A stretch of DNA of 64,000 nucleotides from the human T2T-CHM13v2.0 reference genome, Homo sapiens: the NCBI RefSeq assembly GCF_009914755.1, contig NC_060940.1; one strand, 5' to 3'. Below the pieces are notes generated by a model. That model saw nothing but the letters and a program-made list of their open reading frames with translations, made no database searches and was not told the origin of the DNA. The position numbers and the translations under genes are program-made. Below are positions 30,663 to 57,300 of this stretch, one piece after another (positions within the stretch are counted from its first letter, which is position 1; each line of letters starts with the position of its first letter).

Positions 30663-30911
30663 ACCAGCAAGCCTCCGCCTGTCCTTCACTGGGCCTGGTC
30701 TGTCGGGTTGCTGAAGGCCGGTGAAGCACTGCTCAGGGTTTAGTAACCAGCAAGCCTCCGCCTGTCCTTCACTGGGCCTGGTCTGTCGGGTTGCTGAAGG
30801 CCGGTGAAGCACTGCTCAGGGTTTAGTAACCAGCAAGCCTCCGCCTGTCCTTCACTGGGCCTGGTCTGTCGGGTTGCTGAAGGCTGGTGAAGCACTGCTC
30901 AGGGTTTAGTA
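30663..30911. repeat. 83-bp tandem repeat x3 in AFG3L1P intron 5
   Basis: ACCAGCAAGCCTCCGCCTGTCC... starts at 30663, 30746, 30829; near-identical copies. Confidence 0.92.
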
Positions 30912-39702: not shown

Positions 39703-41544
39703 TAGGAATAGTCTGCACAGCCTTTTTCTGTACAGTCACCCCCAGAAGAGAATCCCTGATTATTCTGTTTTTAAGGAAGGGTTCTCTCAGGCAAACGTAC
39801 TGGAGAAAGCTGTGTTAGATTCACAAGCCTCCTCCAGTGCATTCCCCTGCCCCCAGATGGAGAGGAGTTCTCTGGAGTGTGGAGACACCTGCTTCTCTGG
39901 GGAGGGGGACCAGGTAGCCGAGCATGGCTGCTCCTGACGGTGCCCACAGGGTGGTGTGTGCACAACCCATGCTCCTTCCACTCTGAGCCTTGTCTTGCTG
40001 CCCCTGCATCACCCAGAATCTCACAGACTCCCCAGGCCTGCCTCCTCTCAGAGTGATTGTAGCTAAGATGTGACTGATCGTTGTCTGTCAGTCCTGCTAA
40101 AGCCTCATTGGACACGTCCAGGCTTCTGTGCCAGCTTTCAGATTTGGACAAACTTTCACTTAGACCTTTGGCAGATGTGATTTTCACTTTGGCTTTAGGG
40201 CCGTGTTGGGGTCCCTAAGACCACCCCAGATGTGGTGACATGCTAGAAGTCATAGGACTCAGTCTATAGTAGCACTCAGGGCTTTATTACCGTTAAAGGA
40301 TACAGCAAAATCAGCCAGGGGAGAAGGCGCATTGGGTCGTGGGGAGACCAGGTCCGTGTTGAACCCTCCCCCAATGGAGCCACATGGGACGCGCTGACTT
40401 CCCCCAGCATCAAGCTGTGACCACGCCTGCCTGATGTTGACCAGGAAGCTCAGGAGAGACTTGGTTCCCAGGGTTTTTGCTGGGGGTGCACAAAGCGTTT
40501 GGGCCCAGGGAGCTGTTTTCTCAAGGAATGGTGGGAACGCTCCCAGAATCACAGTGCCCAGACACTGCCCTTGCGAGCAGGCCTTTCTGAGGACAGCAGT
40601 CAGGCCTGCTGTGTTCAACACTTCTCTACGGGCCAGAAGCATTTCCTAAATATTGTTTTGTCTTTAGTACCCAGTAGTAATTCTAATTAGATGATGACTG
40701 TTTTGATATTTGGAGGGGACCGATTGGAGAGGAGGGAAGTGGAGCACTCAGCCTTTCTCCTCCCTTCCCCTCGGCTGGGCATTCCATTTCCTGTGCAGCC
40801 CCTGGCTTGCCCTCCTCCACTCCAGCACCATGTGGTGTCAGAGGCTGCAGGAACCCATAATAAGTCAGGATAAGGAGGGCCCACGCCCTGGACTTCGCTG
40901 TACCCCCTGAGCCAGGCTGTGGGGTTCCCAGGTAGCGGAGGGATGGCTGGTTACCTGCCATGCACACATCCGGCTAGCTGCTGAGGCTCACCTGCTTCTC
41001 CTGTGTCCAGGGTTCAACTCTGCCACCAACGTCGTGGTGTTGGCTGGCACCAACCGCCCTGACGTCCTGGACCCGGCCCTCATGCGGCCTGGCCGGTTTC
41101 ATCGCCAGATTTACACTGGTGAGTACCCCTTTCTCGGGGTTGGGCCTTTATCCCCTTGGCCAAAAAGTTTGTTTAGGTGATTTGCAGTGTATTTGGAGGG
41201 ATTTTGATAGTAATTCCCAGGCAGTTAATGTAACATTTTGAAAATGTGTGAGAGCCCCAGGTTGCTGCCGTCCGTCCTGCCCCTGGCAATCCACTTTTTG
41301 GCAAGAATATATGTGGTTGGGCCTGCAGGGATGTTGCTGCAACACAGAGAGGTGGGAGGGATGTAACAGATACTTATTCTCCAGCTTTTTTTTTTTTTTC
41401 CCACTACTATAAAAATTTGATAGTCGGCTCAGCATGGTGGCTCACACCTGTAATCCCAGCTCTTTTGGAGGCCGAGGCAGGCAGATCACTATGTCAGGAG
41501 TTTGAGACCAGCCTGGCCCATATGGTGAAACCTTGTCTCTACTA

Positions 41545-41703
<159 letters not shown>

Positions 41704-43049
41704 TCAAAAACAATAAATTATGAAAAAGTAAAAATTGATGATTTAGAAGACAGCAATTTATCCCTTACTCTTCACCCTGACGGTCAGCCATCGTCGCCTT
41801 CCCCCTACCCTCTTGTGTTTGTTAGGAAGCATTAATCCTGTGTGGCCCTCGGCTGAGGGGTTTAGTAGCTGTGGAGGCAGATGTGTGTGTGGCCTGGCTG
41901 GTTTCTGCCATTGCTTCCAGCTGTGTCTGGAGGATGACAGCAGAGACCTCCACAGGGACCCCAGCTGTCCTTGCAGTTCTGTGGTATGGTTGTGGGTGAC
42001 TGTTCTGAAGACCCAGAAAGCACAAGAGCCCATGCTTCTTTCTCTGTTTTTCATTAGGTCCCCCTTACATTAAAGGCAGGTCCTCCATCTTTAAGGTCCA
42101 CCTGCGCCCACTGAAGCTGGACAAGAGCCTCAATAAGGACACCCTGGCGAGGAAGCTGGCAGTGCTCACCCCAGGCTTCCCTGGTGAGTGCTGCGGGCTG
42201 TGCTGTTCCCCGTGGTGGGAGCCATGTGTGCTCTGCTCCTTGTCATGGGGGGTGGTGACTGGCCGTTCTCATTCAGTTCTGGCAGTGCTCACCCTTGTCT
42301 GCAGGACTTTTCGCCTGTTGAGAGTGTTCAGAGGCCTCAGAGATCAGTTTCTTAGCCCCAAAACTAATTTGTACCCACTTGAATTTCTGTCTTAATTAAA
42401 GTCAGACTTAGTGAGTCTTACTGCAGAGCTGACAGTAATGTCCCAGGGGGAGAATCTGGCAACCTGATGCTTCCCGCAGCGTTTCTGCCTGGGGCTTGCC
42501 CTCCCTGCTGAGGAAGCTCGTTTGCTTTTCTCTCTTCTTTTCAATGAAATCCTGGTCTATGCTAGGAAACCTACTTCCCTGCCTAGGCGGGATCACCCTC
42601 AGGAATGAGTGGGGACTTTTCCAGGGAGATGCCTGTTCTTTTCACCCATGCTCCGCAGCTCTTTGCTGCGTCAGTACCTCATGGTTATGTGGCCATTGGC
42701 CACGGCTTCTGACCTATGCCCGCCGGCTCCTGCCACCCCTGGAACATTCTGCTGTGGCATCTTATCACCTCCAGCTGCCTTGGCGCCCCCAGTGGTACCC
42801 GTCCCCTGGCTCCCCACAGTGTCCTGCCTAGTGTCAGGTCACGTGTATTCACACAGGATTGTACGTTTGCCTGCTGCAGGATGGTGAGTGAGGTCTTGGC
42901 TGGCAGGTATCTGAAAGGTGTCATCTGTCTTAGACACAAAATGTGCTTCCTCCCTTTTGTTCTCTCCTCTGGCTGACTTCAGATGTCTGTTTACATACCA
43001 AAGTTAAAAAGCTGGAATGTTACCAAGACTGCTTTCTTCTGCCCATAGA

Positions 43050-44430
43050 CGGGGATGACTCAGCACTACCCCTCAACAGAGATGACTTTGATGACTCTGC
43101 CCCTCAGCAGGGCTTACTAAGCACTACCCCTTAACAGGGATGACTCCACACTGCCCCTCAACAGGGATGACTCAGCAGAGATGACTCAGCACTGTCCCTT
43201 AGCAGGGATGACACAGCAAGGATGATTCAGCACTGCCCCTCAGCAAGGATGACTCAGCACTGCCGCTCAACAGACATGACTCAGGGATGGCTTAGTACTG
43301 CCCCTCAGCAGGGATGACTCAGCACCGCCTCTCAACAGGGATGACTCAGCAGGGATGACTCAGCACCGCCCCTCAACAGGCATGACTCTGCAGAGATGAC
43401 TCAGCACTGTCCCTTAGCAGGGATGACACAGCAAGGATGACTCAGCACTGCCCCTCAGCAAGGATGACTCAGCACTGCCGCTCAACAGGGATGACTCAGG
43501 GATGGCTTAGTACTGCCCCTCAACAGGGATGACTCAGCAGGGATGACTCAGCACCGCCCCTCAACAGGCATGACTCTGCAGAGATGACTTAGTACTGCCC
43601 CTCAGCAGGGATGACTCAGTACTGCCCCTCAGCAGGGATGACTCAGCACTGCCCCTCAACAGGGATGACTCAGCAGGGATGACTCAGCACTGTCCCTTAG
43701 CAGTGATGACACAGCAAGGATGACTCAGCACTGCCCCTCAGCAAGGATGACTCAGCACTGCCGCTCAACAGACATGACTCAGGGATGGCTTAGTACTGCC
43801 CCTCAGCAGGGATGACTCAGCACCGCCCCTCAACAGGGATGACTCAGCACTGCCCCTCAACAGGGATGACTCAGCAGGGATGACTCAGCACTGTCCCTTA
43901 GCAGCGATGACACAGCAAGGATGACTCAGCACTGCCCCTCACCAAGGATGACTCAGCACTGCCGCTCAACAGACATGACTCAGGGATGGCTTAGTACTGC
44001 CCCTCAGCAGGGATGACTCAGCAGGGATGACTCAGCACCACCCCTCAACAGGGATGACTCAGCAGGGATGACTCAGCACTGCCCCTCAACAGGGATGACT
44101 GCAGGGATGACTCAGCACTGCCCCTCAGCAGGGATGACTCAGCACTGCCCCTCAGCAGGGATGACTCAGCAGGGATGACTCAGCACCGCCCCTCAACAGG
44201 CATGACTCTGCAGAGATGACTCAGCACTGCCCCTCAGCAGGGATGGCTCAGCAGGGATGACTCAGCATTGCCCCTCAACAGGGATGACTCAGCAGACTCA
44301 GCAGGGATGACTCAGCACTGCCCCTCAACAGACATGACTCAGCAGGGATGACTCAGCACCACCCCTCAGCAAGGATGACTCAGCAGGGATGATTCAGCAG
44401 AGATAACTCGGGGATGACTCTGATTGTCCT
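43050..44430. repeat. Minisatellite of 14-bp GGGATGACTCAGCA and 13-bp CTGCCCCTCARCA monomers (ARE/AP-1 array)
   Basis: About 38 perfect ATGACTCAGCA copies counted by eye; higher-order block marker CTGTCCCTTAGCA at 43192, 43407, 43690, 43891. Confidence 0.95.
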
Positions 44431-44454
44431 TCAGCAGGGATGAGTCTGTTTTGC

Positions 44455-44906
44455 TCCGATGGAAGCATCTGTAGTGTCCATCAGCAGGTGAATGGCCAAA
44501 GTGGTATATACTGTAGTCACATTCAGCTATAAAAAGGAATAAAGTATCGATGCATGCCACAACATGGGTGAACCTAGAAAATACTGATCTAAATGCAAGA
44601 AGCCAGGCACAAAAGGCCACATAGTATATGTTCCCATTTATGTGAAATGTGCAGAATAATAATAAAAATGTATAGAATAGCAAATCTGTAGGGACAGACA
44701 TGAGGTGAGTGGTTGCCAGAAGTGGAAATGGGAGTTAACTATAAATTGCACAGGGTACCTTACAGAGATGATGGAAATGTCCTAAAACTAGATTATGGCA
44801 ATAGTTGCACTACGTGATCAGTTTATTAAAAATCGTTGATGTGTGTGTGTAAAATGGGTGGATTTTATGGTTTATAAATTATACCTTAATAAAGGTTAAC
44901 AAAAAA
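44455..44906 (+). mobile_element. Old L1 (L1MB/L1ME-like) 3' end with AATAAA at 44888
   Basis: Resembles the L1M 3'UTR consensus (gaagccaggcacaaaaggccacatagtatatgttcccatttatgtgaaatgt...gtggttgccag...gatggaaatgtcctaaaactaga) and ends in aataaa...aaaaaa; subfamily not determined. Confidence 0.75.
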
Positions 44907-45242
44907 TGTGGCTAAATAGTGGTGACTGATGGACACCTCCCATTACCTTTAAGTTCTCTACTGAAGTTCAGCCTTGGCCTCTCTGCTGGAGATTTTCCTT
45001 AACAACTGATCTGGGTCAAGCTCCAGCGGCCAGGAGCAGCACTGACTGTTGGCTATTCCTTCCTGGGTCTGGTGCTGATATTTCGAATGTTTGCAATGAA
45101 GCAGCCCTGATTGCTGCCTGGCATCTGAGTTCTTCTGTTCAGGAGAAACACTTTCAGCAGGCCATTGAGAGGGTCATCGGAGGTGAGCCTGGGAGCCCTT
45201 AGGGAGGGAGGGGTGTTTGCAGCTCTGGGCCTGGCAGGCTCA

Positions 45243-45832
<590 letters not shown>

Positions 45833-46784: not shown

Positions 46785-49700
46785 TAGCCAGGATGGTCTC
46801 GAACTCCTGACCTCGTGATCTGCCTGCCTTGGCCTCCCAAAGTGTTGGGATTGCAGGTGTGAGCCACTGCTCCCAGCCCAAAGCTACTTATTTTTATTTA
46901 ACTTGAAAAAATTTTAAAAAATTTTATAGAGGTGGGGTCTTGCTATGTAGCCCAGGCTGGTCTCAATCTCCTGAGTTCAAGTGATTCTCCTACCTTGGCC
47001 TCCAAAGTTCTAGGATTCCAGGTGTGGTCACTGTGTCCTGCCACCAGAGCCTCCTGAGGGCTGTCCTGGTGTGATTAGAGGGCTCTGAGCAGGGCCAGCT
47101 GTGCCATCTGTGCTTTTCCTTTGTCCTGTTACCTACCCTTGCACTGGGCCGTTAGGGCACTGAGATCATCCCTCTCCATCCTGTCATGCTGTGCTGTCAT
47201 CTTTAGTCAAGCCAGAGGATATGGTGCTTCGCTGTGTTTCACACACAGCTGTTCCCATTGGCTTCAAATGGGCCTGTTTAGTTAAGGCTTTGTGTGAAGT
47301 ATGTGGGAAGTGGGTTTCACTTTCAAGAAGGCAGCATGGAGCTGGGGCTTGGCCTCTGCTGTCTGGTATAGAGGAGCCTGGGGATCAGGTGTAGCTGCAG
47401 ACACAGCTGGGCGCAGAGGGAGTGGCCTCATTTCCCAGCCACCTACTCCTGCCGTGCCTCACTCGCCGGGGAATGTGATGTGTAGGTCTTGAGAAGAAGG
47501 CCCAGGTCCTGCAGCCCGGTGAAAAGACAACTGTGGCCTACCACGAGGCCGGACACGTGGTGGTAGGCTGGTTCTTGGAGCACGTGGACCCCCTGCTGAA
47601 GGTTGGTCCTCCCACCCTGAGTGAGTCCACCTGGCAGGCTTGGGCCTGGTATCTCTGGGCCAACCTGTGGTCATGTGGGCATGGTACATTCAAGGATTGG
47701 CCCTTTAGCTTTTTAAGGAATAAACTGCTCTAGAATTTGTCAAAAGATCCCTTCGGGGTGGGAAAGCAGGGCAGTGGGTTCCAAATGGGGCCTTGGCCAT
47801 GCGACTCCAGGGAGCAGCCTCAGTGTTAAACCCGCCTGACTCCTGAGCTCTGGATTCGACCGTTGGCCTCTCCAGAGACTCTGCAGGGTGGGCAGAGCGT
47901 AGGTGGTTTCCACGTGAAGCTCCCAAAGGCGGGTGCACTTCTTGGGGCATCCCCATGGTGTATGGGGGGCCTGGGTCAGGCTGTCTTCTCTCCTGTTCCA
48001 GTAGAAGGACCTGTGGTCAGAGCTAGGGTCAGGTGGCCTGGCCGCTCCAGGGTGGCTCCTGGAGGAAGTGGGGACAGTGTTTGGGGTGATGAGGGCATGT
48101 GTCCTGTCCTCAGGTGTCCATCATACCCCAGGGCAAGGGGCTCCGCTACGCACAGTACCTGCCCCGGGAGCAGCAGCTCTACACCCAGGAGCAGCTCTTC
48201 GACCGCACGTGCATGATGCTCGGGGGCCGGGTAGCCGAGCAGCTGTGCTCCGGGTAGATCACTATGGGGGCTCAGGACGACCTGAGGAAGGTCACCCAGA
48301 GTGCCTACGCCCAGGTAAGGGTGGGCATCCCCCGGCACGGGCCGCAGGAGGCTCTGTTGGGCGCAGGCTCATCCTGGGTTCCGCACTGGCAGGTTGTGCA
48401 GTTTGGGGTGAGTGAGAAGCTGGGCCAGGTGTCCTTCGACTTTTCCCGACACGGCAAGACCCTGGTGGAGAAGCTGTACGGCGAGGCAAGCGCCCAGCTC
48501 CTTGATGACGAGGTCCGGCACCTCGTCAGTGCCACCTACAGGTGCACCCTGGACCTGCTGACACGGTGCCGGGAGCATGTGGAGAAGGTGAGTGTGGCCT
48601 CTGCCCAGACAGGTCGTGGGTCCCATGTTGAGTCACGGTCATGCCACACCCGAAGGCCACACCCGTCCTTCAGCTTGCTTAGGTTTGGGCTGTGATCATG
48701 TCCTCAGAGCCGTCTGACAGGTGGGCCGTTGTTTCCAGGTGGGCCAGCGGCTCCTGGAGAAGGAAGTACTGGAGAAGGCAGACATGGTGGAGCTGCTGGG
48801 CCCCCGGCCCTTCTCGGCGAAGTCTACCTATGAGGAGTTTGTAGAGGGCGTGGGCAGCCTGGAGGAGGACACATCCCTTCCCGAGGGGCTGAAGGGTTGG
48901 AACCGCGGACAGGAGGAGGAAGATGTGGAGAGCAGCCTGTGCAGGGGGCTCTGTGTAGCCTGTGGCGGTCGCCTGCACCTGCTGCTGGGTGGAGTTGGGG
49001 TGACTGCCACTTACCTGGGGCCTTGGCAAAGCAGCTGCGGAATCTCACCCAAAACAAATTAAAACGTGACAACTGTGAATGGGTGTTTTAGATGAGGGTG
49101 CTCTGAGCCCACATGCAGGGAGTAGGAGTGGGAGTGGGCAGAGGGGGTACCCTGAGTCCCTGGGCCCTCCCGCTGGAGGACAGTCGGGTCCAGGCTTAGA
49201 CGGGAGAGGCCCCAGGGCTCTGGCCCCTGTGGTGCTGAGGAAGGCACGACTGTAGCTTCGAGAGGGGCTTGCGTGGGACACCTTGGAGACACCAGGCCTT
49301 CCTGGGGCCTCCGTGGAGGAGCGTTGATATGGTCATAAAGACACTCGGAGGAGCCTGGGTCCAGCACAGAAACCCTCACCGTTTGGTAGAATTCAGAAGA
49401 GGAGAACGTCAGCCAGGCATCAAGGGGAAGTCAGGGTTCTAAAGCAGCTGTTTGGATCGGTAGAAGCCGATCTGCTGTTCTGTCCTTAGAAAGGAAAAAG
49501 CCCACACCACCCACAGGTGCATGGCTGAGGGAGGAGGTGGAGCTGTGGGGCCTCACACCTGGGTTCCCCATCAGGGCACCCCCCGCCACCCCTGCCTGCG
49601 CCTTGGCTCTGTGGCAGCACTGCTGAGTGTGAGGGAATTGAGTTGCTTAGAAAACCTGGCCCCTGTCCTTGGCTGGAGGTGCTTTCACTGCGGGATGTGT

Positions 49701-51516: not shown

Positions 51517-52560
51517 GTGAATCCCTCCCCTGGCCTGGGCCACCTTTACCAGCACGTGGGGTGGGATTCTGTGACTCCCTCCCCCGGCCTGGGCTACATT
51601 TACATGCACGTGGGGTGGGACTTCTATGACTCCCTCCCCCGGCCCGGGCTACCTTTACATGCACGTGCGGTGGGACTTCTATGACTCCTTCCCCCGGCCC
51701 GGGCTACCTTTACATGCACGTGCGGTGGGACTTCTGTGATTCCCTCCCCCAGCCCGGGCCACCTTTACGTGCACGTGGGGCGGGACTTCTATGACTCCCT
51801 CCCCCGGCCCGGGCCACCTTTACGTGCACGTGGGGCGGGACTTCTGTGACTCCCTCCCCCGGCCCGGGCCACCTTTACGTGCACGTGGGGTGGGACTTCT
51901 ATGACTCCTTCCCCCGGCCCGGGCTACCTTTACATGCACGTGCGGTGGGACTTCTGTGATTCCCTCCCCCGGCCCGGGCTACCTTTATATGCACGTGGGG
52001 TGGGACTTCTGTGACTCCCTCCCCTGGCCCGGGCCACCTTTACGTGCACGTGGGGCGGGACTTCTGTGACTCCCTCCCCTGGCCCGGGCCACCTTTACGT
52101 GCACGTGGGGCGGGACTTCTTTGACTCCCTCCCCTGGCCCGGGCCACCTTTACGTGCACGTGGGGTGGGACTTCTGTGACTCCCTCCCCTGCCCCGGGCC
52201 ACCTTTACGTGCACGTGGGGCGGGACTTCTGTGACTCCCTCCCCTGGCCCGGGCTACCTTTACGTGCACGTGGAGCGGGACTTCTGTGACTCCCTCCCCT
52301 GGCCTGGGCCACCTTTACGTGCACGTGGGGCGGGACTTCTGTGACTCCCTCCCCTGGCCCGGGCTACCTTTACGTGCACGTGGGGTGGGACTTCTGTAAC
52401 TCCCTCCCCTGGCCCAGGCCACCTTTACGTGCAACGTGGGGCGGGACTTCTGTGACTCCCTCCCCCAGCCTGGGCTACCTTTACATGCACGTGGGGTGGG
52501 ACTTCTGTGACTCCCTCCCCCAGCCTGGGCTACCTTTACGTGCACGTGGGGCGGGACTTT
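51517..52560. repeat. 55-bp VNTR, 19 copies (GACTCCCTCCCCYGGCCCGGGCYACCTTTACRTGCACGTGGGGYGGGACTTCTGT)
   Basis: Period 55 (e.g. 51793 to 51848); lies between the AFG3L1P and DBNDD1 3' ends. Confidence 0.95.
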
Positions 52561-54397: not shown

Positions 54398-57300
54398 CTA
54401 GGGGCATGCGGGAAGGGGAACTCGGTGTGGCTGAGAGGCCTGGGTGGATGCTGCGGAGCTCCAGGTGCCGCCGGCCTCCTGCGCCACTCCTGCCAATGCT
54501 CTGCACCAGCCCCCTGCACCAGGCATGCACACATCTACCTCTAACGGGAGGCCCCCACCACACACTGGCCCCACCAGAGAGGTGGATGTTGTGGTCTGGG
54601 TGGGGCCTGGGCAGGGTCTTTTCTGGTGCTCCCCGGAGTCACTGTATAGTCTAGGCTGAGCCTCTCCTGTTTGGTCATTAAGTGACCCTGGTGGGGCCTC
54701 CCTAAACTGTTCCCCCCGCAGGTGTCCCACCTCAGCCAACCACCCTCCATGAGCCCTGCAGGCCTCTTGGAGCCTCTGCCCCATCATGGGCCTTGTGAGT
54801 CCCCGGCCTCTTGGAGCCTCTGCCCCATCATGGGCCTTGTGTGTCCCCGGCCTCTTGGAGCCTCTGCCCCATCATGGGCCTTGTGAGTCCCCGGTGCAGG
54901 CTCTGTGGGGCTGGGGATTCGGGTGGGCTGGAGTCTGAGCCCCTCACTCCACCTCCCCAGCCACAACAGCCATGCCTGGGCTCACGGGCTGGGTGGGAAG
55001 GGTTGCCGCCAACATGGAGCTGGTGGGAACTGGCCAGGGTCAGGCAATGGCCTTGTCCTGGAGGTGAGCTGGGGGCTGACTCATGAGGCCCCATTCCCTC
55101 CCAGACACCTGGGGCTGCAGCAGCCTGGGACACACAGGCCGACACCCCTTCCTGACAACTCCAGGAACCATGGGAGCAGCTGGCCACCGGCAGGAGTCAC
55201 AGTGGGGCTGGTCCTTTTAATGAGGTCCTGAGTGGCCTGGGGGGTTGGGAAGCAGAGGCTGGGCCAAACTGTCCCATGCGGAGAAGGCTCGGCCCTGATG
55301 CTCTCACAGTTACTGAAGTTCACACAGGTCACGTCAGTGTCCTTCACTGGTCACTGTCAGAGACTGAGGACGCGCTGTCGCATCCTCATGAGTCCTGTGC
55401 TCTCGTCACGGCTTAGGAAGGAGACACGACAATGGCCGTGCTGGGGGCCCTGCTCGGCAGTGTGAGGACACTGGAGCTGCCTTCAGGCCAATGGCAACGC
55501 TCCCGTGGGAATCAGAGGAAGTTAAGTGAGCTGAGGAGGGGCCCGGGCTGGTGATCACCCCCACCTTTCGTTCTTGGCCCATTTTATGATGAAAATTCAC
55601 ATTCATTAAATTCTGCTTTTGAGGGGACAGTGGCTTTAGCCGTCTGTTGCTCACTTGAAAAGTAAAGTTTTAAGCAGCTGTGACGGGGAAGTTGCTTCAA
55701 GTTGGGCAGATAGCAGCGTGGTGAAATGAAGTGCTGAGGGATTCTTGCTAAAACACACGCACACCTCCCAGGACTTCCCAAGGGGCCTCAGCCCACCACC
55801 CACACCTCCCAGGACGTCCCAAGGGGCCTCACCCCCCAAACACACCTCCCAGGACTTCCCAAGGGGCCTCACCCCCCAAACACACCTCCCAGGACGTCCC
55901 AAGGGGCCTCACCCCCCAAACACACCTCCCAGGACGTCCCAAGGGGCCTCAGCCCACCACACACACCTCCCAGGACGTCCCAAGGGGCCTCAGCCCACCA
56001 CGCACACCTCCCAGGACGTCCCAAGGGGCCTCAGCCCACCACGCACACCTCCCAGGACGTCCCAAGGGGCCTCAGCCCACCACCCACACCTCCCAGGACT
56101 TCCCAAGGGGCCTCAGCCCACCACCCACACCTCCCAGGACGTCCCAAGGGGCCTCACCCCCCAAACACACCTCCCAGGACTTCCCAAGGGGCCTCAGCCC
56201 ACCACCCACACCTCCCAGGACGTCCCAAGGGGCCTCACCCCCCAAACACACCTCCCAGGACTTCCCAAGGGGCCTCACCCCCCAAACACACCTCCCAGGA
56301 CGTCCCAAGGGGCCTCACCCCCCAAACACACCCTTCAGGACTTCCCAAGGGGCCTCAGCCCACCACCCACACCTCCCAGGACGTCCCAAGGGGCCTCACC
56401 CCCCAAACACACCTCACAGGACTTCCCAAGGGGCCTCACCCCCCAAACACACCTCCCAGGACGTCCCAAGGGGCCTCACCCCCCAAACATACCTCCCAGG
56501 ACGTCCCAAGGGGCCTCAGCCCACCACACACACCTCCCAGGACGTCCCAAGGGGCCTCAGCCCACCACGCACACCTCCCAGGACGTCCCAAGGGGCCTCA
56601 GCCCACCACGCACACCTCCCAGGACGTCCCAAGGGGCCTCAGCCCACCACCCACACCTCCCAGGACTTCCCAAGGGGCCTCAGCCCACCACCCACACCTC
56701 CCAGGACGTCCCAAGGGGCCTCACCCCCCAAACACACCTCCCAGGACTTCCCAAGGGGCCTCAGCCCACCACCCACACCTCCCAGGACGTCCCAAGGGGC
56801 CTCACCCCCCAAACACACCTCCCAGGACTTCCCAAGGGGCCTCAGCCCACCACACACACCTCCCAGGACTTCCCAAGGGGCCTCAGCCCACCAGGCACAC
56901 CTCCCAGCCCAGCCCTGATGCCGGCCTCACCTGCTGGGGACTCGGTGTTGAGGTTCTCGTCGTCCGAGTCAGCAAAGACCTCGGCCAGCTCCTGGTCCGA
57001 CATGTCGGTGAGCTCAGTGAGGTCCAGGAGGTCGAAGTGGACCTCCAGAGAGGAGACGCTGCTCAGAGGCTCTGAGGGCAGAGGGGGTACAGTCAGCCCT
57101 CAGGCCCTCCCACAAGGCTGCTCAGAGCCCCGGGGGTCTAGGAGAGAGTGCGCTGTGTCCTCCCACAAGGCTGTGGGTGAACCACAGCTTCCTGCAAAGC
57201 CCACACCGGCAGGATCTGATGAGTGTTGCGTATACTCATGACTAGAAGGCTTTCACTTGACAGATGGTGCAGCTGAGGCTCAGAGAACCAGAGCTGCAAG

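What the first reader, a model, noticed from the sequence alone, without database searches (positions are those of the whole stretch)
43050..44430. Minisatellite that is a natural array of ~38 perfect antioxidant-response (ARE/NF-E2/AP-1) elements
Seen: the dominant monomer GGGATGACTCAGCA carries ATGACTCAGCA about 38 times in 1.4 kb, all in one orientation. Variants that keep RTGAYnnnGC (ATGACACAGCA, ATGATTCAGCA, ATGACTCTGCA) and AP-1-only TGACTCA copies add more sites. Established: ATGACTCAGCA is the high-affinity site for CNC-sMAF dimers (NRF2/NFE2L2, NFE2, NFE2L1, BACH1/2 with MAFF/G/K) and contains the AP-1 heptamer. Inference: this is denser than multimerised ARE reporter constructs, so it may act as an oxidative-stress/AP-1-inducible enhancer, or a factor sink, whose strength scales with allele length. 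Candidate targets are AFG3L1P, DBNDD1, DEF8 and the neighbouring MC1R region. A repeat like this would be poorly tagged by SNP arrays.
Basis: partly seen in the sequence, partly recalled or inferred. Interest (0 to 1): 0.85.

Follow-up and report, generated by a model that had tools for sequence, protein, structure and literature searches.

The report
Tandem array of bZIP binding sites
A 1.4-kb tandem repeat inside the AFG3L1P pseudogene carries 38 identical copies of a consensus binding site for stress-response (AP-1 / NRF2-type) transcription factors and already scores as an enhancer in several large reporter screens, but whether it controls any gene in living cells is still untested.

Summary
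The window has 38 exact ATGACTCAGCA, all on the + strand, between 43055 and 44385, plus 10 further ARE-core and 5 AP-1-only sites. The repeat unit is not the 14-mer. The array is about 65 units of 27 bp (36), 14 bp (19) and 11 bp (5), with a 133-bp higher-order block present four times.

The locus is single-copy and holds 1.1% of all exact sites in CHM13. It is the densest array of RTGACTCAGCA but not the largest: a 56-bp VNTR at 4q35 has 70.

The enhancer reading is partly supported. Five RefSeq enhancer records from four kinds of high-throughput assay overlap the array. All three such arrays on chr16 overlap enhancer records, which cover 2.4% of the chromosome. The P300/CBP-dependent class that contains this array is about eight-fold enriched for TGASTCA.

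A 2025 paper reports MORC3, SUMO2/3, H3.3 and H3K9me3 on a tandem repeat at AFG3L1P in monocytes, so the array is silenced in at least one lineage.

NRF2 specificity, inducibility, allele-length scaling and target genes are untested. The factor-sink idea is quantitatively weak. Verdict: new member of a known kind (motif-array VNTR enhancer), moderate interest.

The parts
43052..44399 (+). Minisatellite core: about 63 units of 27, 14 and 11 bp, each starting with ATGAC
   Evidence: TRF gives periods of 27, 41 and 68. The unit parse found 36 x 27 bp, 19 x 14 bp and 5 x 11 bp. The 27-mers average 86% pairwise identity.
43055..44385 (+). 38 exact ATGACTCAGCA (NF-E2 / ARE / AP-1 consensus), all in one orientation
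   Evidence: Spacings between successive sites: 27 bp x13, 14 bp x9, 41 bp x6, 65 bp x4, others x5.
43055..43166 (+). Degenerate 5' units (one exact site at 43055)
43181..44012 (+). Higher-order zone: a 133-bp block (27+14+27+27+11+27) starting at 43181, 43396, 43679 and 43880
   Evidence: The four copies are 96.2-98.5% identical in pairs. A 401-bp self-match at 92% is.
44400..44445 (+). Degenerate 3' units
42983..44910 (+). Terminal exon of AFG3L1P transcript NR_003226.1, which contains the whole array. NR_003227.1 uses an acceptor at 43047-43048, so its exon starts at 43049, 6 bases before the first exact site. In NR_003228.1 the array is intronic.
   Evidence: RefSeq exon table; sequence.
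44460..44910 (+). Dispersed repeat that abuts the array (looks like an old LINE-1 3' end, by recall). Its AATAAA at 44889-44894 precedes the transcript end at 44910.
   Evidence: 2319 first-look candidates in CHM13, 40 scored at 73-83% identity. Other copies align from about 44460-44475 onward. Sequence.
42971..43265 (.). RefSeq enhancer 'tiled region #3926; HepG2 Activating DNase matched - State 25:Art, and K562 Acti...' (holds 4 exact sites)
43369..43448 (.). RefSeq enhancer 'active region_11432' (2 exact sites)
43563..44762 (.). RefSeq 'P300/CBP strongly-dependent group 1 enhancer' (26 exact sites)
42764..44726 (.). Two abutting RefSeq 'NANOG-H3K27ac-H3K4me1 hESC enhancer' records, 42764-43744 and 43745-44726 (16 and 22 exact sites)

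Best explanation
This is a single-locus minisatellite in AFG3L1P. It lies in an intron of the long transcript and in the terminal exon of two shorter ones. Its 27-bp unit, and the 14-bp unit derived from it, carry a consensus bZIP site.

Because the site is copied about 40 times, the array is a multivalent docking platform for TGASTCA-binding bZIP dimers. AP-1 (FOS/JUN) is the likeliest occupant in most cells. CNC-small-MAF dimers (NRF2, NFE2, NFE2L1, BACH1) are equally compatible by sequence.

When accessible, the array acts as a p300/CBP-dependent enhancer. In at least the monocyte lineage the chromosomal copy is instead held in SUMO/MORC3/H3.3/H3K9me3 heterochromatin.

Shown: the anatomy, the genome-wide rarity, the overlap with enhancer records and the motif enrichment of the class. 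Inferred: which factors bind, that the motif drives the reporter activity, and that the published AFG3L1P repeat is this array. Unknown: any endogenous target gene.
For: - 38 exact sites plus 10 ARE-core and 5 AP-1-only sites.
- Five RefSeq enhancer records of four assay kinds overlap the array. The two neighbouring VNTRs in the window (51517-52559 and 55756-56907) overlap none.
- On chr16, 3 of 3 RTGACTCAGCA arrays overlap enhancer records, which cover 2.4% of the chromosome. Two of the 3 lie in the P300/CBP group-1 class, which has 53 records covering 0.066% of chr16.
- In 40 of the 51 other group-1 records on chr16, 27 of 40 hold at least one TGASTCA, at 1.02 per kb. In unselected DNA the figures are 27 of 195 bins of 1200 bp and 0.12-0.14 per kb.
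- An A 5' of TGAC fits Nrf2-MafG-type sites (PMC3488259, section 14).
- This array is the only tandem repeat over 600 bp inside AFG3L1P.
Against: - All the enhancer evidence comes from episomal or ChIP-derived high-throughput assays. I saw only record names, not the data.
- The label 'State 25:Art' on the MPRA tile marks, by recall, an artefact chromatin state, which warns that short-read signal over this repeat is unreliable.
- The array is strongly CpG-depleted: observed/expected 0.11, against 0.33 and 0.27 in the flanks. That fits long-term germline methylation rather than a protected regulatory element.
- The one in-vivo report describes heterochromatin, not activity.
- Only 1 of 40 group-1 enhancers holds RTGACTCAGCA, so that class points to AP-1 and not to NRF2.
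- AP-1 heptamer arrays are common. There are 710 triple matches per strand against 514 for a reversed-pattern control, so a motif array alone does not prove function.
- No factor occupancy, no induction and no target gene were seen.
Confidence: 0.55

Rival explanations
1. The array is a neutral minisatellite with no endogenous regulatory role. A unit that happened to contain the motif expanded. The chromosomal copy is methylated or heterochromatic, and the reporter activity only reflects what naked bZIP sites do on a plasmid.
For: - CpG observed/expected is 0.11.
- H3K9me3, H3.3 and MORC3 are reported in monocytes.
- The locus is subtelomeric and VNTR-rich: two more VNTRs over 1 kb lie within 13 kb.
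- AP-1 arrays are common genome-wide (710 against 514 control).
- The motif (unit positions 1-11) is only about 2-fold less variable than the spacer (21 of 396 cells against 62 of 576), and the units are not independent.
Against: - A DNase-matched MPRA tile and H3K27ac/H3K4me1/NANOG ChIP-derived records imply some accessibility in HepG2 and hESC.
- 3 of 3 such arrays on chr16 are annotated as enhancers.
- The MORC3/SUMO mark is selective, seen at 3 sites in that study, which suggests the cell actively represses something with enhancer potential, as it does at the IFNB1 MRE.
Confidence: 0.3
2. This is the reader's specific version: an NRF2 (CNC-small-MAF) driven, oxidative-stress-inducible enhancer whose strength scales with allele length.
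For: - The sites match the core ARE and carry the A 5' of TGAC that is typical of Nrf2-MafG sites.
- HepG2, where the MPRA tile is activating, has high NRF2 activity (recalled).
Against: - 0 of 48 sites have the extended TMAnnRTGAYnnnGCR form.
- The enhancer class that contains the array is AP-1-type. RTGACTCAGCA occurs in 1 of 40 members.
- No paper linking AFG3L1P/AFG3L1 to NRF2 binding came up in three searches.
- Record lengths suggest that CHM13 and the GRCh reference have equal length over 43050-43265 and 43563-44430, so length polymorphism is not shown.
Confidence: 0.2
3. The array is a factor sink that titrates CNC-sMAF or AP-1 dimers away from other genes.
For: It has many high-affinity sites in one place.
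Against: - 38 sites are 1.1% of the 3420 exact 11-mers in CHM13, and far less once near-consensus sites are counted.
- A larger array exists at 4q35, with 70 sites.
- Published copy numbers of these factors per cell are in the tens of thousands (recalled, not checked).
Confidence: 0.03
4. The function is at the RNA level. The array is transcribed in the terminal exon of two AFG3L1P RNAs and might act as a repeat-containing non-coding RNA that sponges a protein or a microRNA.
For: The array lies inside exon 42983/43049-44910 of NR_003226.1 and NR_003227.1.
Against: - No Rfam match at E <= 1.
- The longest open frame across the array is 53 aa.
- Nothing specific points to an RNA role.
Confidence: 0.03

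Closest known systems
MORC3-regulated element (MRE), about 100 kb downstream of IFNB1 (PMC12311797; sections 36 and 37 read)
   Same: - Both are long tandem repeats that are unique in the genome (for this array; the paper says so for the MRE).
- Both carry an iterated transcription-factor motif.
- Both have reporter enhancer activity.
- MORC3, SUMO2/3, H3.3 and H3K9me3 are reported on both, with MORC3 gain after SUMO inhibition.
- I located the MRE in CHM13 at chr9:20986618-20988724, with periods of 99 and 192.
   Different: - The MRE carries PU.1/IRF motifs: 51 GGAA/TTCC and 0 TGASTCA. This array has 0 GGAA and 43 TGASTCA.
- The unit is 95/190 bp in the MRE and 27/14 bp here.
- The MRE has a proven target (IFNB1). 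This array has none.
- That the paper's AFG3L1P repeat is this array is my inference, because Table S6 and Fig. S4B are closed.
Natural AREs / NF-E2 sites and multimerised ARE reporters
   Same: The same core sequence (TGACNNNGC with an AP-1 heptamer), with an A or G 5' of TGAC as at Nrf2-MafG sites.
   Different: - Natural elements carry one to a few sites and reporters about 4-8 copies (recalled). This array has 38 exact sites plus 10 variants.
- No extended TMA flank is present (0 of 48).
- No occupancy or induction is shown.
Other VNTR or microsatellite enhancers that work through iterated motifs (for example MNS16A with GATA1 sites, abstract seen in the listing; GGAA microsatellites, recalled)
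   Same: Copy number of a motif-bearing unit sets the number of binding sites.
   Different: The factor family is different (bZIP). Length polymorphism and a dose effect are not shown here.
Sister arrays in CHM13: 4q35 56-bp VNTR (chr4:191792081-191796076), ERICH1 39-bp VNTR (chr8:426590-428537), chr16:94399357-94399725, SETX intron chr9:144484210-144484938
   Same: All are tandem units carrying TGASTCAGC, with 70, 38, 8 and 13 sites respectively. The chr16 one is also a P300/CBP group-1 enhancer and an activating MPRA tile.
   Different: - They show no sequence relation to this array beyond the motif (one search found only self-matches).
- Their site density is lower: 17.5 per kb at 4q35 and 19.5 per kb in ERICH1, against 27.5 per kb here.
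- The ERICH1 sites start AGC rather than TGC, and 0 of them are RTGACTCAGCA.

Membership tests
Antioxidant response element (ARE) | Core TGACNNNGC / RTGAYNNNGC | tested here: met
   46 and 48 matches, all on the + strand. The consensus is as given in PMC3488259.
Antioxidant response element (ARE) | Extended 'functional' form TMAnnRTGAYnnnGCR | tested here: not met
   0 matches on either strand. By recall the extension is not obligatory.
Antioxidant response element (ARE) | NRF2-small-MAF occupancy and induction by electrophiles | not testable with these tools
   No ChIP or expression data could be reached. Searches found no paper reporting it.
NF-E2 / CNC-sMAF site | TGCTGAGTCAY on one strand, with A or G 5' of TGAC on the other | tested here: met
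   38 exact sites. The A/G rule is in PMC3488259, section 14. The NF-E2 consensus itself is recalled.
AP-1 TRE | TGA(C/G)TCA heptamer | tested here: met
   43 in the array, against 0.14 per kb in the rest of the window.
Palindromic T-MARE (MAF homodimer site) | TGCTGASTCAGCA | tested here: not met
   0 matches. The 5' base A is reported as unfavourable for MafG homodimers.
Minisatellite / VNTR | Head-to-tail units of 10-100 bp at one locus | tested here: met
   Single locus.
Minisatellite / VNTR | Copy number varies between people | tested here: inconclusive
   Only indirect evidence. The RefSeq records over the array keep their nominal lengths in CHM13 (1200 bp, the class median; 295 bp, nominal by recall). 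Both records over the chr16:94.4 Mb array are 46 bp, one unit, longer. This compares two haplotypes only. The unequal higher-order blocks suggest past unequal exchange.
Transcriptional enhancer | Activates a reporter | tested here: met
   By annotation only. Five RefSeq records overlap: MPRA tile activating in HepG2 and K562, 'active region', P300/CBP group 1, and two hESC records. Which studies they come from is recalled, not seen.
Transcriptional enhancer | Controls an endogenous gene | not testable with these tools
   No deletion, contact-map or eQTL data were available.
MORC3-regulated element type | MORC3/SUMO2/3/H3.3/H3K9me3 on a unique tandem repeat, with MORC3 gain after SUMO inhibition | tested here: inconclusive
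   Published for 'the tandem repeat at the AFG3L1P locus'. This array is the only large repeat in the gene, but the peak coordinates are in closed supplements.
MORC3-regulated element type | Iterated PU.1 sites | tested here: not met
   0 GGAA/TTCC in the array, against 51 in the MRE.

The most novel reading that the evidence does not exclude
The AFG3L1P array is a second element of the MRE type, a latent enhancer built from iterated bZIP sites instead of PU.1 sites. In myeloid cells SUMO-dependent MORC3/H3.3/H3K9me3 heterochromatin keeps it shut. Loss of SUMO or strong AP-1/CNC-sMAF activation would open it into a p300/CBP-dependent enhancer for 16q24.3 genes.

In this reading the determinant that brings MORC3/SUMO to the AFG3L1P and ERICH1 repeats would be arrays of TGASTCAGC-type sites occupied by SUMO-modified bZIP proteins. 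Fos, Junb and Maff are SUMO substrates in that paper's own sumoylome, and MAF-family activity is repressed by SUMO (PMC9903618 passages).

For: ERICH1, the only other locus the paper names, hosts a 39-bp VNTR with 38 TGASTCAGC. GCTGASTC is present in all three elements (39, 38 and 13 in the MRE) and in 0 of 14 control VNTRs.

Against:
- That motif was chosen after looking.
- ERICH1 has 13 VNTRs of about 450 bp or more. One of them carries 27 GAGGAAG, which would fit the paper's own PU.1 model.
- The 4q35 array (70 sites) is not named by the paper.
- AP-1-only arrays are common.
Probability: 0.2. Interest if true: 0.75.

Novelty: new member of a known kind. Interest (0 to 1): 0.55.

Why it matters
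If the array works in the chromosome, it would be an unusually strong, stress- or signal-responsive enhancer. It sits 76 kb from MC1R, in the 16q24.3 block that pigmentation and skin-cancer association signals cover, and SNP arrays and short reads see such a repeat poorly.

It would also give the MORC3/SUMO 'metastable heterochromatin on a motif platform' mechanism, so far shown for one element (the IFNB1 MRE), a second case with a different factor family. That makes the general rule testable.

If it proves inert in the chromosome, it becomes a useful caution: consensus-motif arrays light up reporter screens and annotation tracks without doing anything in place.

Tried and rejected
- 'The AFG3L1P and ERICH1 arrays are the two largest TGASTCAGC arrays in the genome.' This held for gaps of 1-31 (14 and 17 of 43 matches). 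It was rejected once gaps of 31-61 were searched (109 matches, most of the 100 listed from one 4q35 VNTR with 70 sites).
- 'AP-1 arrays are rare.' Rejected: 710 triple matches per strand against 514 for the reversed control.
- 'The 5' flank is also part of the dispersed (LINE-1-like) repeat, so the array is an internal expansion.' Not supported. Window 42760-43060 matches only itself at E <= 1, and alignments of the flank to 5 genomic copies scored below shuffled controls.
- 'The array grew from the 5' end of the 3'-flanking repeat.' The only hint is a 21-of-28 match between window 44461-44488 and a unit (blastn-short E = 0.03 in a tiny database). Kept as a weak lead.
- RNA family: none found. 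Coding: longest open frame 53 aa.
- Literature, all 10 searches used:
  - AFG3L1P + tandem repeat: 2 papers, 1 relevant.
  - AFG3L1P + VNTR: nothing relevant.
  - AFG3L1P + NRF2: 3 papers, judged irrelevant from listing and abstract only.
  - AFG3L1 + NRF2 + ChIP-seq: 2 papers, irrelevant by listing.
  - The 11-mer + tandem: 6 papers, none on this locus by listing.
  - DBNDD1 + VNTR: 0 papers.
  - ARE/NRF2/minisatellite/VNTR: 25 of 998 listed, none on ARE arrays.
  - P300/CBP group wording: 0 papers.
  - ERICH1 + VNTR: 3 papers, irrelevant by listing.
  - MafG + sumoylation.
  So 'not in print' means not found by these searches in this library. Supplements are closed, notably Table S6 and Fig. 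S4B of PMC12311797 and the VNTR-eQTL tables of the VNTR papers listed. They may hold the peak coordinates or an eQTL for this repeat.
- The sources of the RefSeq record classes are recalled, not seen: Sharpr-MPRA, ATAC-STARR-seq, hESC ChIP-STARR-seq and a cofactor-dependence STARR-seq study in HCT116. So are the meaning of 'Art' and the nominal 295-bp tile length.
- No comparison with other primates or other human assemblies was possible with these tools.
Full report
OBSERVATION. ATGACTCAGCA occurs 38 times in the window, all on the + strand, from 43055 to 44385. Shuffles expect 0.05, and 0 of 100 reached 38. The named variants are there: ATGACACAGCA x4, ATGACTCTGCA x3 and ATGATTCAGCA x2, plus ATGACTCAGTA and ATGGCTCAGCA once each. 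By class, 43050-44430 holds 48 RTGAYNNNGC, 46 TGACNNNGC and 43 TGACTCA, and none on the minus strand. The excess over chance is not informative in itself, because a tandem repeat copies whatever its founding unit contained.

ANATOMY.
- The 14-mer GGGATGACTCAGCA occurs 26 times but is not the repeat unit.
- Cutting the array at each ATGAC-like anchor gives 36 units of 27 bp (for example the window stretch ATGACTCAGCACTGCCCCTCAACAGGG), 19 of 14 bp (ATGACTCAGCAGGG x9 is the commonest), 5 of 11 bp and a few irregular ones.
- The 27-mer contains CTCAGCA twice. The 14-mer equals the 27-mer minus the 13 bases between those two copies, the signature of slippage (read).
- TRF sees periods of 27, 41 (27+14) and 68 over 43052-44399.
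- A 133-bp block of six units recurs at 43181, 43396, 43679 and 43880 at 96.2-98.5% identity, while the 27-mers overall average 86%. The array has therefore grown recently by higher-order duplication.
- Units at both ends are degenerate.
- Motif positions 1-11 vary at 21 of 396 cells and spacer positions 12-27 at 62 of 576. The difference is modest, and the units are not independent, so it is weak as evidence of constraint.
- G+C is 57% but CpG observed/expected is 0.11, against 0.33 and 0.27 in the flanks.
- No Rfam family matches and no open frame exceeds 53 aa.

SETTING.
- The array lies in the 5.9-kb intron between AFG3L1P exons 42058-42183 and 48114-48314 of NR_003228.1. It is wholly inside the terminal exon of NR_003226.1 (42983-44910) and NR_003227.1 (43049-44910).
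- The second acceptor sits directly before the first unit.
- From about 44460 to 44910 the sequence is a dispersed repeat: 2319 first-look candidates, 40 scored at 73-83% identity. By recall it looks like the 3' end of an old LINE-1.
- The AATAAA at 44889-44894 of that repeat precedes the transcript end.
- The 5' flank 42760-43060 is unique in the genome.
- The first 28 bases of the 3' repeat resemble one array unit (21 of 28; E = 0.03 in a very small database). The array may therefore have been seeded at the truncated end of that element. This is a weak lead only.

GENOME-WIDE CONTEXT (CHM13 open regions; all counts are lower bounds).
- A 401-bp piece of the array matches only the array itself.
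- The genome has 3420 exact ATGACTCAGCA (1694 + 1726), so this 1.4 kb holds 1.1% of them.
- Of 37 places where two exact sites lie 3-30 bp apart, 30 are here.
- Of 19 triples of TGACTCAGCA with gaps of 1-30, 14 are here.
- With the looser TGASTCAGC and gaps of 1-31 there are 43 triples: 14 here, 17 in one ERICH1 VNTR and 12 in small arrays.
- With gaps of 31-61 there are 109. Most belong to a 56-bp x 71 VNTR at chr4:191792081-191796076 that carries 70 GTGACTCAGCA.
- This array is therefore the largest for the exact A-form and the densest overall (27.5 sites per kb against 17.5 at 4q35). It is not the largest array of consensus RTGACTCAGCA.
- Arrays of the bare AP-1 heptamer are common: 710 triples per strand against 514 for a reversed control.

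ENHANCER EVIDENCE ALREADY ON RECORD.
- RefSeq's functional-element track lists five enhancer records over the array:
  - an MPRA 'tiled region #3926' that is activating in HepG2 (DNase-matched) and K562;
  - 'active region_11432';
  - a 'P300/CBP strongly-dependent group 1 enhancer';
  - two 'NANOG-H3K27ac-H3K4me1 hESC enhancer' records.
- These hold 4, 2, 26, 16 and 22 exact sites respectively.
- The two other large VNTRs in the window (51517-52559 and 55756-56907) overlap none.
- Enhancer records cover 2.4% of chr16. Yet all 3 RTGACTCAGCA arrays on chr16 found overlap one.
- The 46-bp x 8 array at chr16:94399357-94399725 is again a P300/CBP group-1 enhancer and an activating MPRA tile. The 20-bp x 3 array at 71769568 is a 'MED14-independent group 3 enhancer'.
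- Group 1 has 53 records covering 0.066% of chr16.
- I fetched 40 of the 51 other group-1 records.
- 27 of those 40 hold at least one TGASTCA, at 1.02 per kb. The comparison is 27 of 195 bins of 1200 bp, and 0.12-0.14 per kb, in the unselected DNA I held.
- Only 1 of 40 holds RTGACTCAGCA and 11 of 40 hold TGASTCAGC.
- I read this class as AP-1-type. The array belongs to it because of its heptamers, not because of anything specific to NRF2.
- Caveats. I saw record names only, and which studies they come from is recalled. No control class could be fetched. The tile label 'State 25:Art' denotes, by recall, an artefact chromatin state, which warns that short-read signal over this repeat is untrustworthy.

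PUBLISHED IN-VIVO EVIDENCE.
- One relevant paper came up: Goffeney et al., NAR 2025, PMC12311797. I read the outline, sections 36 and 37, and term searches of it.
- In BlaER1 monocytes the paper reports 52 MORC3-specific peaks. [quoted passage not shown]
- Both repeats carry high SUMO2/3, H3.3 and H3K9me3, and the repressive marks fall after SUMO inhibition. THP1 cells behave alike.
- The main text gives no coordinates and no motif analysis for these two repeats. It contains none of the words AP-1, NRF2, MAFK or BACH1. Fos, Maff and Junb appear only as LPS-induced SUMO substrates.
- Inside AFG3L1P the only tandem repeat over 600 bp is this array, so I take it to be the published one. The proof is in closed supplements.
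- The array has no GGAA at all. The PU.1 route proposed for the MRE therefore cannot explain MORC3 arrival here.

A CROSS-LOCUS LEAD AND ITS LIMITS.
- ERICH1 in CHM13 holds 13 VNTRs of about 450 bp or more.
- The largest is 39 bp x 50.5 at chr8:426590-428537. It carries 41 TGASTCA, 38 of them as TGASTCAGC.
- The MRE, which I located at chr9:20986618-20988724, has no TGASTCA but has 33 TGCTGA half-sites and 13 GCTGASTC.
- GCTGASTC occurs 39, 38 and 13 times in the three elements and 0 times in 14 control VNTRs.
- This suggests that MORC3/SUMO-marked repeats may be bZIP-site platforms.
- Against that:
  - the shared 8-mer was picked after looking;
  - another ERICH1 VNTR (487439-488798) carries 27 GAGGAAG, which fits the paper's PU.1 model;
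  - the 4q35 array is not named in the paper;
  - AP-1 arrays are common.

WHICH FACTOR?
- By sequence the sites suit both AP-1 and CNC-small-MAF dimers.
- Hirotsu 2012 (PMC3488259; passages and section 14 read) gives the core ARE and the MARE. It reports that the base 5' of the ARE at Nrf2-MafG sites tends to be A or G, which is unfavourable for MafG homodimers. Every exact site here has A.
- The palindromic MARE and the extended TMA-ARE are both absent, at 0 matches each.
- The group-1 analysis points to AP-1 in the cell line of that screen.
- No call bears on NRF2 occupancy or stress induction.

- Sink. With 1.1% of exact sites and a bigger array elsewhere, titration is implausible.
- Allele length. 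The P300/CBP record over the array keeps the class's nominal 1200 bp and the MPRA tile is 295 bp. Both records over the chr16:94.4 Mb array are 46 bp, one unit, longer (1246 and 341 bp). If records were carried over from the GRCh reference by alignment, CHM13 and GRCh do not differ in length over 43050-43265 and 43563-44430. That compares two haplotypes and says little about the population.
- Targets. Nothing was testable. Distances from the array:
  - AFG3L1P/CENPBD1P promoter: 23 kb;
  - DBNDD1 3' end: 8 kb;
  - DBNDD1 promoters: about 24 kb;
  - DEF8 promoter: 47 kb;
  - MC1R: 76 kb.

VERDICT.
- The best-supported account is a single-locus minisatellite that doubles as a multivalent bZIP platform. 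It shows p300/CBP-dependent enhancer activity in reporter screens and is held in SUMO/MORC3 heterochromatin in monocytes.
- The NRF2-specific, inducible, length-scaled version remains a hypothesis.
- In kind it joins known motif-array repeat enhancers such as the MRE.
- What appears new, within the ten searches listed under Tried and rejected, is reading this published MORC3-bound repeat as an AP-1/NF-E2 site array.

Noticed in passing
L021 (chr4:191792081-191796076, 4q35.2, inside lncRNA LOC105377609 near LINC01060): A 56-bp x 71-copy VNTR at 98% unit identity carries 70 GTGACTCAGCA, which is more consensus ARE/NF-E2 sites than the AFG3L1P array. It has one CpG-containing word per unit (64 CpG).
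   Followed up: partly
L006-L017 (ERICH1; chr8:426590-428537): The largest of 13 ERICH1 VNTRs (39 bp x 50.5) carries 41 TGASTCA, 38 of them as TGASTCAGC. ERICH1 is the only other locus named with AFG3L1P as a MORC3/SUMO-marked tandem repeat in PMC12311797.
   Followed up: partly
L006-L017 (ERICH1; chr8:487439-488798): A 49-bp VNTR carries 27 GAGGAAG (ETS/PU.1-like core). It is a rival candidate for the MORC3-bound ERICH1 repeat.
   Followed up: no
L029 (chr16:94399357-94399725): A 46-bp x 8 array with 8 GTGACTCAGCA overlaps a P300/CBP group-1 enhancer and an activating MPRA tile. Both records are 46 bp longer than their nominal lengths, so CHM13 seems to have one unit more than the reference on which the records were defined.
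   Followed up: partly
L022-L027 (chr9:20986618-20988724): The IFNB1 MRE was located in CHM13 (periods 99 and 192, 2.1 kb, about 103 kb from IFNB1). It has 51 GGAA/TTCC and 0 TGASTCA, but 33 TGCTGA half-MAREs and 13 GCTGASTC.
   Followed up: partly
window 51517-52559 and 55756-56907: Two more VNTRs over 1 kb lie close by: 55 bp x 19 between AFG3L1P and DBNDD1, and 41/81 bp x 28 in a DBNDD1 intron. Both are 92-94% matched, have no bZIP motifs and overlap no enhancer record.
   Followed up: partly
window 44460-44910: A dispersed repeat (LINE-1-like by recall) abuts the array and supplies the AATAAA used by two AFG3L1P transcripts. A splice acceptor lies directly before the first array unit, at 43047-43048.
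   Followed up: partly
window 43050-44430: The array is not in the list of stretches masked as repeats (100 bases or more) in the reference FASTA. The nearest masked stretches are 41426-41741 and 45268-45581.
   Followed up: no
window 30663-30911: An 83-bp unit is repeated 3.0 times at 99% identity in an AFG3L1P intron.
   Followed up: no
chr1:235493393-235494540 and chr1:73025241-73025555 (not fetched): These are long arrays of AP-1 heptamers with 29-bp and 28-bp units. Similar short versions are scattered on chr1, so they probably belong to dispersed elements with internal repeats.
   Followed up: no
L028 (chr9:144484210-144484938, SETX intron): A 41-bp x 18 VNTR holds 16 TGASTCA, 13 TGASTCAGC and 6 RTGACTCAGCA.
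   Followed up: no
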